NCBI RefSeq assembly: GCF_003334385.1
Contig: NZ_QOWN01000129.1
Strand: one strand, 5' to 3'
Length of the DNA stretch: 1,060 nt
Source of the DNA: Escherichia coli
GTDB taxonomy: Bacteria; Pseudomonadota; Gammaproteobacteria; Enterobacterales; Enterobacteriaceae
In this document: piece after piece, positions 1 to 402 of the stretch
Layout of the letters: every line of letters starts with the position of its first letter
Position numbering within the stretch: position 1 is the first letter of the stretch
Notes under the pieces: generated by a model
What the model was told of the DNA's origin: nothing
Databases searched by the model: none
What the model saw: the letters and a program-made list of their open reading frames with translations, nothing else
Translations under genes and position numbers: made by a program

Positions 1-402
1 CTCCCCGCCATTGACGATCAAAAATCCTTTCCCCGGGGCACGTATGCCACACACCAGGGCGGACTCTGGCGGGCGTATGAAAAAACGCACGGGATGCGGG
101 GATGGGAATGCCTGGTTGACGGGGTGGCGGATATTGACGTCAGCATGACGGGTGAACGGTTGTTCTCTGTGGTGGTCCGGCAGAGCAGTGGCCAGCGTAC
201 GGAAAAAACATTTTCCCTGCCGGTGATGCTCTACCGCGGTGTGTTCAGAGCCGGTGAAACCTACCACCCCGGCGATACGGTGACGTGGGGGGGCTCGCTG
301 TGGCACTGCAACAGTATGACCGAAGATAAACCCGGAGAAGCTCATTCATCAGCCTGGACCCTGGCTGCAAAACGTGGGCGGGATGCAGGAGGCGGAAAAT
401 GA
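1..402 (+). CDS. Phage structural-module protein of unknown function, 5'-partial (start lies upstream of the window); C-terminal region has a tandem W/G-rich motif resembling a small carbohydrate-binding (CBM5/12-like) domain
   Basis: Frame 1 is open from nt 1 through the TGA at 400-402 (hand-translated, no in-frame stop in 1..93), so the ATG at 94 in the ORF track is probably internal. Stop overlaps the next gene's start (ATGA, 399-402). Same strand and codon style as the two recognisable phage genes downstream. Product is unassigned; the motif resemblance is from memory only. Confidence 0.65.
   Translation, partial: LPAIDDQKSFPRGTYATHQGGLWRAYEKTHGMRGWECLVDGVADIDVSMTGERLFSVVVRQSSGQRTEKTFSLPVMLYRGVFRAGETYHPGDTVTWGGSLWHCNSMTEDKPGEAHSSAWTLAAKRGRDAGGGK
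387..392 (+). promoter_or_regulatory. Shine-Dalgarno (AGGAGG) for the connector gene, lying inside the 3' end of the upstream CDS
   Basis: Perfect AGGAGG with a 6-nt spacer to ATG 399; the start then overlaps the upstream TGA, a typical translational-coupling arrangement. Confidence 0.7.

What the first reader, a model, noticed from the sequence alone, without database searches (positions are those of the whole stretch)
28..363. Tandem W/G-rich repeat in the truncated upstream protein, second copy resembling a chitin/carbohydrate-binding (CBM5/12-type) module
The translation of 1..402 contains two related segments: FPRGTYATHQGGLWRAYEKT (nt 28-87) and FRAGETYHPGDTVTWGGSLWHCNSMT (nt 244-321), sharing F-R-G-x-TY ... 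GG-[LS]-LW-x-[AC] ... T. The second copy plus its tail (AGETYHPGDTVTWGGSLWHCNSMTEDKPGEAHSSAWTLA) resembles, as I recall it, the A-G-x-x-Y-x-x-G-D-x-V-x-[YW]-x-G-x-x-[YW]-x-C ... P ... W-x-L pattern of small bacterial chitin-binding type-3 domains. A carbohydrate-binding domain on a protein encoded between head genes and the connector would suggest a capsid-displayed decoration or adhesion module, which is not a standard core component of this module. It is the only part of the window not explained by canonical phage structural families.
Basis: partly seen in the sequence, partly recalled or inferred. Interest (0 to 1): 0.5.

Follow-up and report, generated by a model that had tools for sequence, protein, structure and literature searches.

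The report
Portal-linked phage protein, CBM5/12-like tip
The tryptophan/glycine-rich stretch is the conserved end-knob of an uncharacterised phage head protein that always sits next to, and in many E. coli prophages is fused onto, the portal protein; the knob is built from two small modules with the fold of chitin-binding domains, but where it sits in the virus and what it binds is still unknown.

Summary

The protein is not a capsid or decoration protein. It is 'X', a conserved acidic, fibre-like protein: N-terminal helix, variable helix-PxPxDG or collagen-like repeats, then this knob. X is encoded immediately after an HK97-type portal and before adaptor Ad1 in every informative locus. The module always contains a protease-capsid fusion gene.

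In E. coli prophages a G5/G6 run decides between two coupled genes (52 contigs) and an in-frame 860-915-aa portal-X fusion (41 contigs). A second, independent fusion exists elsewhere.

The knob is as conserved as the portal (68% vs 69%), which argues against a strain-specific receptor binder.

Best reading (confidence 0.4): a low-copy portal-vertex fibre anchored at the portal's inward-facing C-terminus. An external neck fibre remains a serious rival. No experimental data were found.

The parts
1..402 (+). 3' end of gene X (or of the portal-X fusion). It encodes the last 133 residues of the conserved ~140-aa C-terminal knob domain plus the stop codon TGA at 400-402. The ORF runs off the 5' end of the window.
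   Evidence: Translation. 98-99% identical to E. coli prophage and Stx-phage loci where the ORF is 860-915 aa. Domain family alignment A1. AlphaFold pLDDT 94.
28..117 (+). CBM5/12-like unit 1 (window aa 10-39, FPRGTYATHQGGLWRAYEKTHGMRGWECLV), three beta-strands. Its near-invariant G-W-E (nt 100-108) aligns with G686-W687-E688 of the B. circulans ChiA1 chitin-binding domain.
124..216 (+). Three-stranded beta-meander inserted between the two units (window aa 42-72).
   Evidence: DSSP strands E52-59, E64-71, E76-82 in A1 numbering. No similarity to either unit. Retained, with unit 2, in the distant homologues of Rhizobium phage RHph_X2_26 and Pseudomonas phage PAJU2.
232..369 (+). CBM5/12-like unit 2 (window aa 78-123, YRGVFRAGETYHPGDTVTWGGSLWHCNSMTEDKPGEAHSSAWTLAA). 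This is the part that matches Pfam CBM_5_12.
370..399 (+). Short basic/Gly-rich C-terminal tail (KRGRDAGGGK). In many homologues it continues as a few collagen-like G-x-D triplets (KRGRDGKDGRNG...).
   Evidence: Alignment A1 and homologue sequences.
399..402 (+). ATGA stop/start overlap between X and the adaptor gene, indicating translational coupling.
   Evidence: Sequence, ORF list, annotation.
399..725 (+). Head-tail adaptor Ad1 (gp6-like connector), the invariable downstream neighbour of X.
   Evidence: RefSeq/PGAP and phage annotations. Found downstream of X in 79 of 80 loci. PF05135 in L004 and L179.
735..1060 (+). Head closure protein Hc1, running off the 3' end of the window.
   Evidence: Annotations. 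PF05521 in relatives.

Best explanation
SHOWN. The finding is the conserved C-terminal knob of 'X', an uncharacterised accessory protein of one specific head-module type: TerL, S78-protease::capsid fusion, small ORF, HK97-type portal, X, adaptor Ad1, head closure Hc1. X has an N-terminal amphipathic helix. It then has a variable number of acidic ~27-aa 'helix + I-P-x-P-x-D-G' repeats; the E. coli form has a 54-aa, 162-nt tandem unit present 4.3 times, and some relatives have collagen-like G-x-y runs instead. It ends in a ~140-aa all-beta knob made of two CBM5/12-fold units around a three-stranded sheet. X is translationally coupled to the portal and to Ad1. In about 44% of E. coli-type contigs it is fused in frame to the portal C-terminus by a G5-to-G6 change about 20 nt before its start codon.

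INFERRED MECHANISM. X is a low-copy (about 12 or fewer per virion), probably trimeric fibre of the portal vertex. Its N-terminus docks at the C-terminal (crown) end of the portal. Portal C-termini face the capsid interior, so X most likely lies inside the (pro)head, either tethered non-covalently (G5) or covalently (G6). Its knob binds a conserved partner. That partner would be either a phage component (the protease-capsid fusion or the DNA end) or, if X is released by the prohead protease and ejected, a conserved GlcNAc-type glycan such as peptidoglycan. Unit 1 retains a candidate binding Trp.
For: - Identity and architecture.
- CBM5/12 fold of both units.
- Synteny: in all 58 IMG/VR loci with enough upstream DNA, X directly follows an HK97-type portal and precedes Ad1 (79 of 80 loci). 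The same order is seen in JGI contig L004, Rhizobium phage RHph_X2_26 and Pseudomonas phage PAJU2.
- Coupling: ATGA overlaps at both ends.
- Fusion: G5 in 52 contigs, G6 in 41, no other run length, and G6 present in at least 5 haplotype clusters. An independent fusion with a different junction (P0024, 1237 aa) is seen on 4 contigs from two sources.
- Portal C-termini face the capsid interior. This is established knowledge from SPP1, P22, T4 and HK97 portal structures.
- Genes directly after the portal encode portal-bound internal head proteins in SPP1 (gp7), Mu (gpF) and 80alpha (gp44). This is established knowledge; MuF toxins are described in PMC5576092, which was listed but not read.
- Knob conservation equals that of the portal and TerL: 68% vs 69% and 65%.
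Against: - No experiment or solved structure locates X. No PDB chain matches the whole knob and no paper was found.
- X is acidic (pI 4.8), which is awkward next to packed DNA.
- With overlapping ATGA genes, a 1-nt indel easily creates a fusion, so fusions are weaker evidence of physical association than usual.
- Free X could still be made in G6 phages from the retained internal ATG.
- Many E. coli prophages are defective, so persistence of an allele does not prove function.
Confidence: 0.4

Rival explanations
1. External neck fibre (whisker-like) or portal-proximal head fibre. X trimers attach by their N-terminal helix to the neck (portal clip or Ad1). The CBM5/12-like knob at the distal end binds a widely conserved glycan or the phage's own side tail fibres, as T4 fibritin does. 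In G6 phages, free X from the internal start would supply the function and the fused copies would merely be tolerated.
For: - Fibre-like build with N-terminal coiled coil, copy-number-variable shaft and C-terminal knob.
- Collagen-like PF01391 segments in relatives.
- Structural neighbours are tail fibres and tailspikes, and weak tail-fibre PHROG hits occur.
- The gene abuts the adaptor gene, as wac abuts genes 13/14 in T4 (own knowledge).
- The internal ATG and an upstream purine-rich stretch are retained in the G6 allele.
Against: - Two independent in-frame fusions to the inward-facing portal C-terminus.
- The distal knob is more conserved than the supposed N-terminal anchor (68% vs 44%), the reverse of typical fibres.
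- No collar or whiskers are reported, to my knowledge, for phages 2851, BP-4795, D3 or PAJU2.
Confidence: 0.3
2. Assembly-only factor. X would be a portal-tethered, scaffold-like nucleator whose knob binds the protease::capsid fusion to start shell growth on the portal. The 415 built-in S78 proteases would then degrade it, so it would be absent from mature virions. Fused or free would make no difference.
For: - Strict co-occurrence with the S78::MCP fusion module.
- An acidic, helical, elongated N-terminal part, as in scaffolding proteins.
- Portal-like stoichiometry implied by coupling.
- The knob co-evolves at the rate of capsid and portal.
- It explains tolerance of the fusion without further assumptions.
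Against: - No similarity to any scaffolding protein.
- Highly variable shaft length, from 0 to more than 20 repeats.
- Collagen-like runs and CBM-fold knobs have no precedent in scaffolds.
- A well-folded 15-kDa beta-domain is a poor substrate and could not leave through capsid pores.
Confidence: 0.15
3. Capsid-wide decoration or adhesion protein. Many copies of X would bind the capsid lattice and display a carbohydrate-binding module, as Hoc- or Dec-type proteins do.
For: - CBM5/12 fold.
- One member gives a marginal Phage_cement_2 hit (E 0.09).
Against: - The gene is coupled to 12-copy proteins, not to the capsid gene.
- It is fused to the portal in 41 of 93 contigs.
- There is no significant match to decoration families.
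- The upstream part is a portal, not a capsid or decoration protein.
Confidence: 0.07
4. The W/G pattern is a chance resemblance in a non-functional or decaying prophage ORF.
For: Pairwise repeat score is not above shuffles. Many E. coli prophages are defective, and some loci carry extra frameshifts in the portal (L018, L029, L038, L075).
Against: - 342 representative clusters at E<=1e-30 and 5,491 at E<=1e-3.
- Conserved synteny across Enterobacteria, Pseudomonas, Rhizobium and metagenomes.
- pLDDT 94.
- Nearly invariant core residues.
Confidence: 0.02

Closest known systems
CBM5/CBM12 chitin-binding modules (Pfam PF02839), e.g. B. circulans ChiA1 ChBD 1ED7, S. griseus ChiC ChBD 2D49, S. marcescens ChiB, Vibrio chitin deacetylases with two tandem CBM12
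   Same: About 45-residue three-stranded antiparallel fold. Shared Y-x-x-G-D-x-V-x-[YW]-x-G-x-x-[YW]-x-[AC] core motif. Core aromatics correspond (F92/Y98/W106/W111/W129 in A1 numbering align with W656/Y662/Y670/Y675/W696 of ChiA1). Two units in tandem, as in Vibrio COD.
   Different: Not attached to a glycoside hydrolase or deacetylase. Unit 2 lacks the surface Trp (W687 equivalent) and has a conserved [DE]-K-P instead. Unit 1 is too divergent for Pfam. A three-stranded sheet is inserted between the units. No binding data exist.
Small CBM5/12-like modules in phage tail fibres and tailspikes and in contractile-injection-system baseplates (Pa193 gp47 9B45, phage 7-7-1 fibre 9RKV, Pam1 tailspike 7EEA, Anabaena Cis13/All3316 7B5H)
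   Same: Same small fold embedded in fibrous virion proteins. All3316 shares 28-29% identity over about 50 residues and was the best PDB sequence hit.
   Different: Those proteins belong to tails or baseplates. X is encoded in the head module, coupled or fused to the portal.
Portal-adjacent minor head proteins: SPP1 gp7, Mu gpF (MuF family, PF04233), 80alpha gp44
   Same: Gene immediately 3' of the portal gene, occasional fusion to the portal, low copy number, variable remainder of the protein (own knowledge; the MuF toxin paper PMC5576092 was listed but not read).
   Different: No sequence or profile similarity. X is acidic and fibre-like with a conserved C-terminal knob, not a variable one.
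T4 fibritin (wac) neck whiskers and phi29 head fibres
   Same: Trimeric fibre logic with N-terminal anchor, repetitive shaft of variable length and C-terminal knob. The wac gene lies next to the neck genes (own knowledge).
   Different: No homology. Fibritin is never fused to the portal. In X the knob is the conserved end.
P22 portal C-terminal barrel
   Same: A long C-terminal extension of the portal that projects into the capsid interior (own knowledge). This is the only well-studied precedent for what the G6 fusion would place there.
   Different: The P22 barrel is a ~120-residue helix without repeats or a globular domain. It is an integral part of the portal, not a separable gene.

Membership tests
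CBM5/12 (Pfam PF02839 CBM_5_12) | Significant match to the family profile HMM | tested here: inconclusive
   For this sequence the match is i-E 0.0013 (fragment), 0.001 (143-aa domain) and 0.026 (full protein), partial over model positions 3-25 of 44. For the family, 25 of 78 members reach E<=0.001, best 1.3e-6, and PF02839 is precomputed on many homologues. Unit 1 alone reaches only 6 of 60 at E<=0.1.
CBM5/12 (Pfam PF02839 CBM_5_12) | Compact ~45-residue three-stranded antiparallel beta fold superimposable on solved CBM5/12 modules | tested here: met
CBM5/12 (Pfam PF02839 CBM_5_12) | Solvent-exposed aromatic residue(s) at the ligand-binding position (ChiA1 W687 equivalent) | tested here: inconclusive
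   Unit 2 is not met: the position is [DE]-K-P, with K in 68 of 78 members and P in 78 of 78. In unit 1 the near-invariant G-W-E aligns with G686-W687-E688, but in a weak alignment (5.5 bits).
CBM5/12 (Pfam PF02839 CBM_5_12) | Binding to chitin, cellulose or a related beta-1,4 glycan | not testable with these tools
   Needs pull-down or glycan-array experiments with the recombinant knob.
HK97-family phage portal (PF04860 / TIGR01537) | Portal fold and profile match | tested here: not met
   The finding's region (aa 783-915 of the fused ORF) lies outside the portal match, which covers aa 45-420 (PF04860 E 1.8e-80, TIGR01537 349 bits; PDB portals 9lbn, 8cez). The name 'portal protein' on standalone X proteins and on PHROG 1289 is inherited from the fusions.
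Phage head decoration / cement proteins | Profile similarity to a known decoration family, and high copy number tied to the capsid lattice | tested here: not met
   No Pfam, PHROG or NCBIfam decoration family matches. The only hit is one marginal Phage_cement_2 match (E 0.09, 1 of 78). Gene coupling to 12-copy proteins suggests low copy number, which is an inference.
MuF / SPP1 gp7-like portal-associated minor head proteins (PF04233) | MuF domain | tested here: not met
   No Pfam hit on the full protein or on the standalone homologues. Only the gene position and the occasional portal fusion are shared.
Collagen-like triple-helix proteins (PF01391) | Runs of G-x-y triplets | tested here: not met
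   Absent from the E. coli protein. Short runs are present in relatives P0045 and P0013, in the Rhizobium phage protein and in several PF01391-tagged homologues.

The most novel reading that the evidence does not exclude
X defines a new class of portal-tethered head-internal fibre. Up to twelve acidic, repeat-length-variable stalks would hang from the portal crown into the capsid. Each would end in a tandem CBM5/12-fold knob. A single-nucleotide G-run change would switch them between non-covalent and covalent attachment. The knob would then either grip the protease-capsid fusion to nucleate shell assembly on the portal, or, after proteolytic release, be ejected and bind peptidoglycan. No characterised siphophage has such a component.
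Probability: 0.3. Interest if true: 0.65.

Novelty: new variant of a known kind. Interest (0 to 1): 0.45.

Why it matters
This head module is present in about a quarter of complete E. coli genomes (1,245 of 5,426), including many Stx1, Stx2a and Stx2c converting phages. Relatives occur in Klebsiella, Salmonella, Pseudomonas (the D3/PAJU2 group), rhizobia and metagenomes. Its one conserved gene of unknown role is routinely mislabelled 'portal protein', 'pseudogene' or 'gp6-like connector'.

Knowing that X is a separate, fibre-like protein with a tandem CBM-fold knob corrects those annotations. The natural G5/G6 pair of alleles also gives a ready-made experiment on what a portal can carry on its inward-facing end. 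If X is internal, it is a new kind of portal accessory. If X is external, it is a new neck fibre that may contribute to adsorption of Shiga-toxin phages.

Tried and rejected
1. Pairwise alignment of the two W/G segments. It was not significant, so the tandem claim had to be tested with profiles and structure.
2. Sequence search of the PDB with the full protein and with the knob profile. It found only portals for the N-terminal part and weak CBM hits for unit 2, with no structure for the whole knob or the repeats. The unit 1 profile found nothing.
3. NCBIfam, PHROGs and Pfam on the shaft and on the N-terminus of X. These gave only 'unknown function' PHROGs or names inherited from fusions.
4. 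Nine literature searches: portal plus carbohydrate-binding, CBM_5_12, Stx phage proteomics, 9LBN, head fibre, All3316, phage 2851, PAJU2, Detrevirus. None describes this protein, and one further search failed.
5. tblastn against the phage collection. Besides E. coli, only a few isolated phages carry X (FSL SP-016, EBPR siphovirus 3, PAJU2, RHph_X2_26), and all are annotated hypothetical or 'putative portal'.
6. Programmed -1 frameshifting on A-GGG-GGA-UA in G5 phages to make some fusion protein. I considered this, but there is no canonical slippery heptamer and I could not test it. It stays a low-probability speculation.
7. Host-specific receptor-binding tip. I rejected this as the main reading because the knob is as conserved as the portal.
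8. Solvent exposure of the conserved Trp residues.

Full report
**What the window is**

The 1060-nt window is 98-99% identical to the head-tail joining region of lambdoid E. coli prophages and Shiga-toxin converting siphophages such as phage 2851 (Pankowvirus) and BP-4795. It matches 92 phage records and 1,245 of 5,426 complete E. coli genomes. In the annotated relatives, window 399-725 is the head-tail adaptor Ad1 and 735-1060 is the start of head closure protein Hc1. Window 1-402 is the 3' end of a gene annotated 'phage portal protein', 915 aa in E. coli DETEC-S792 and 859 aa in phage 2851.

The gene order is terS, terL, a 645-aa S78-protease::major-capsid fusion, a small ORF, the 'portal', Ad1, Hc1, then tail genes.

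**Checking the observation**

Taken alone, their similarity is not above chance. The best local alignment scores 30, against 24.6 +/- 5.0 for shuffles, and 292 of 2000 shuffles do as well.

The picture changes with homologues. A phmmer search of 1.84 billion cluster representatives with the C-terminal 143 aa found 5,491 proteins at E<=1e-3 and 342 at E<=1e-30. In an alignment of 78 diverse members, both W/G segments are among the best-conserved stretches. The consensus is ...Y-P-R-G-T-Y-A-x-H-x-G-G-L-W-R... and ...Y-x-x-G-D-T-V-T-W-G-G-S-L-W-H-C-x-E-x-T-x-x-K-P-G...W-T-L-A. A profile-profile comparison aligns unit 1 with unit 2 end to end (36 columns, P = 0.0012), while the control against the intervening segment gives P = 0.25.

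**The CBM5/12 resemblance**

Pfam CBM_5_12 hits the second unit weakly in this sequence: i-E 0.0013 on the fragment and 0.026 on the full protein, over model positions 3-25 of 44. It recurs across the family, in 25 of 78 members at E<=0.001 and 65 of 78 at E<=0.1, with a best value of 1.3e-6. A profile search of PDB sequences returns only CBM5/12-bearing chitinases and chitin deacetylases (8yfp, 9jeo, 2rts, 9fbo, 1ed7, 3wx7) and the contractile-injection-system protein All3316. These score E 0.002-0.4 and all fall on profile positions 88-129.

AlphaFold2 on the alignment gives a confident all-beta model (pLDDT 94.0). It has three groups of strands: unit 1, a three-stranded meander, and unit 2.
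- Phage tail fibres and tailspikes and Cis13 follow.
- Foldseek agrees, and favours proteins with two tandem CBM12 modules.

The tandem claim is therefore supported at the level of fold, and the second-copy/CBM5/12 claim at the level of both profile and fold.

**Ligand-binding residues**

I aligned the B. circulans ChiA1 chitin-binding domain to the unit profiles. The sequence came from memory, and its numbering is self-consistent with W687. The conserved aromatics of unit 2 correspond to the structural core of CBM12. The ligand-binding Trp (W687, in G-W-E-P) falls on a conserved [DE]-K-P, with K in 68 of 78 members and P in 78 of 78. In unit 1, the near-invariant G-W-E (window nt 100-108) aligns with G686-W687-E688, but only in a weak alignment (the same pattern appears). 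Carbohydrate binding is therefore possible but not demonstrated, and if it occurs it may rest on unit 1.

**What the protein is**

The full-length E. coli ORF has three parts:
- **aa 45-420:** an HK97-family portal (PF04860 E 1.8e-80, TIGR01537 349 bits against a cut-off of 112). The nearest solved portals are 9lbn and HK97 8cez.
- **aa ~426-454:** a low-complexity linker.
- **aa ~455-915:** a second protein, 'X'. It has an amphipathic N-terminal helix (MTERELSIIRALGEEF...). Next come 4.3 copies of a 54-aa (162-nt, 90% identical) tandem unit, each made of two 'helix + I-P-x-P-x-D-G' sub-repeats. The knob follows.

Phage 2851 has exactly one repeat unit fewer. Stop-to-stop X ORFs range from 257 to 527 aa among near-identical E. 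coli loci.

Of the best 150 representatives, 148 are standalone proteins of about 190-660 aa with the same plan: helix, a variable number of such repeats or short collagen-like runs, then the knob. Only two carry a portal. X is acidic, with pI 4.8 overall, 4.5 for the repeats and 6.6 for the knob.

**Genomic context**

In all 58 IMG/VR loci with enough upstream DNA, X lies immediately 3' of an HK97-type portal ORF. In 79 of 80 loci Ad1 follows. The protease::capsid fusion and TerL lie upstream wherever the flank reaches. The same order is found in four other places:
- a JGI metagenome contig (portal 456 aa, X 492 aa);
- Rhizobium phage RHph_X2_26 (portal 462 aa, X-like 473 aa annotated 'putative portal protein');
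- Pseudomonas phage PAJU2 (gp06 portal, gp07 'hypothetical', gp08 Ad1);
- the 115-kb contigs that carry P0024.

The Rhizobium and PAJU2 proteins keep the middle sheet and unit 2 but lack unit 1. The second CBM-like unit is therefore the ancestral core and unit 1 a lineage-specific addition.

**Fusion or two genes**

The difference is one G.
- With TTCAGGGGGATACTGAGAAAATGACG (G5), the portal ends ...AGG GGG ATA CTG AGA AAA TGA, and X starts at the ATG of the ATGA overlap.
- With G6, the frame reads ...AGG GGG GAT ACT GAG AAA ATG ACG..., which gives the continuous protein ...MFRGDTEKMTERELS... seen.

A pattern scan of IMG/VR found 93 contigs with this junction: 52 G5, 41 G6 and no other run length. 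G6 occupies at least five haplotype clusters at 1% flank divergence, and four haplotypes contain both alleles. All more distant relatives have separate genes, so G5 is ancestral.

A second fusion has an unrelated junction and a very long PEPEPLPDI-type shaft (P0024, 1237 aa). It is present on four contigs from two independent sources.

The window itself does not reach the junction. Its closest genome (99.2% identity) is G6.

**What it most likely does**

Four inferences can be drawn:
1. X is a component, or an assembly partner, of the portal vertex at roughly portal stoichiometry. It is translationally coupled to two 12-copy proteins and can be covalently joined to one of them. This argues against a capsid-wide decoration.
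2. Portal C-termini (the crown) face the capsid interior; this is established from SPP1, P22, T4 and HK97 portal structures. In G6 phages X must therefore start inside the prohead. The simplest assumption is that free X docks at the same place through its N-terminal helix.
3. The knob diverges no faster than the portal, TerL and capsid. Median identity to E. coli in 23 diverged loci is 68% for the knob, 69% for the portal, 65% for TerL and 77% for the capsid fusion. Ad1 is 54%, Hc1 37% and X's own N-terminus 44%. The knob therefore binds something conserved, not a strain-specific receptor.
4. Genes in this position encode portal-bound internal proteins in SPP1, Mu and 80alpha (own knowledge).

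Against this, everything about X's build has so far been seen only in external fibres: repeat-variable shaft, collagen-like runs in relatives, and a CBM-fold knob whose structural neighbours are tail fibres, tailspikes, the T4 capsid insertion domain and the Cis13 baseplate protein. An acidic protein is also an odd neighbour for packed DNA. In addition, ATGA-overlapping genes are easily fused by a 1-nt indel, and the internal ATG of X is retained in G6, so fusions are weaker evidence than usual.

I therefore rank the readings as follows:
- internal, crown-tethered fibre: 0.4;
- external neck or whisker fibre: 0.3;
- assembly-only nucleator removed by the built-in S78 proteases: 0.15;
- capsid-wide decoration: 0.07;
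- chance or decay: 0.02.

**Comparison with the known, and novelty**

The CBM5/12 signal is already visible to automated pipelines. PF02839 is precomputed on many homologues, and a few NCBI records are named 'carbohydrate binding domain protein'. Most records, however, call X 'phage portal protein', 'portal protein (pseudogene)', 'gp6-like head-tail connector, partial' or 'hypothetical'. PHROG 1289, labelled 'portal protein', is in fact X.

No solved structure, Pfam family or paper covers the whole knob, the helix-PxPxDG repeats or the protein's role. It is a new variant of known kinds: a CBM5/12-fold module, and a portal-adjacent accessory protein. It is not a categorically new system on present evidence.

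**Limits**

All structural statements rest on predicted models. Solvent exposure of the Trp residues, oligomeric state, virion location and ligand were not testable here.

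Noticed in passing
L001:8233-8936 (upstream of the window, same ORF): A 162-nt (54-aa) tandem repeat, 4.3 copies at 90% nucleotide identity, encodes two 'helix + IPxPxDG' sub-repeats per unit. Copy number differs between near-identical prophages: phage 2851 has one unit fewer, and X ORFs range from 257 to 527 aa. No Pfam or PDB match.
   Followed up: partly
L001 ~8000 (junction TTCAGGGGG(G)ATACTGAGAAAATGACG), outside the window: A G5/G6 homopolymer decides between separate portal and X genes and an in-frame fusion: 52 versus 41 contigs, with no G4 or G7. 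In G5 the run is followed by the rare codon AUA. Whether low-level ribosomal slippage makes some fusion protein in G5 phages is untested.
   Followed up: partly
window 399-402 and L001 junction: ATGA stop/start overlaps link portal to X and X to Ad1, so three consecutive genes are translationally coupled. Ad1 to Hc1 instead has a 9-nt gap with a strong GAGGAGG Shine-Dalgarno sequence (window ~723-732).
   Followed up: no
public annotations of homologues: Systematic misnaming. Standalone X is called 'phage portal protein' or 'gp6-like head-tail connector protein, partial'. G5 alleles are flagged 'portal protein (pseudogene)' in some Stx2 phage records. PHROG 1289 'portal protein' is X.
   Followed up: partly
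L178:6703-8646 (PAJU2 gp10-gp12) and L004:9247-10412: Sialyltransferase-like, MptE-like (PF01973, faint) and methyltransferase-like genes sit between the head-closure gene and the tail-completion genes in PAJU2 and in a metagenomic relative. This may hint at virion protein glycosylation in some members of this module. They are absent from the E. coli version.
   Followed up: no
L088:1094-2308 (Rhizobium phage RHph_X2_26): An SGNH-hydrolase-type gene lies between the capsid fusion gene and the portal. An esterase decorating the capsid is reported for Stx phage phi24B (abstract of bioRxiv 10.64898/2026.04.10.717836, seen).
   Followed up: no
L001:6488-6709: A 73-aa ORF lies between the capsid fusion gene and the portal and overlaps the annotated portal start by 55 nt. 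It is detectably conserved in only 8 of 80 loci at E<=1e-3, and the portal start is annotated differently in different records.
   Followed up: no
L018, L029, L038, L075 (IMG/VR loci): The portal ORF is split by additional frameshifts in these contigs. They are degraded prophage copies or assembly errors, a reminder that not every allele in these collections is functional.
   Followed up: no
L088:3774-5195 and L178:4977-5981: Distant X homologues (Rhizobium phage, PAJU2) lack CBM-like unit 1 and carry only the middle sheet plus unit 2. The tandem arrangement seen in the window is thus a lineage-specific elaboration.
   Followed up: partly
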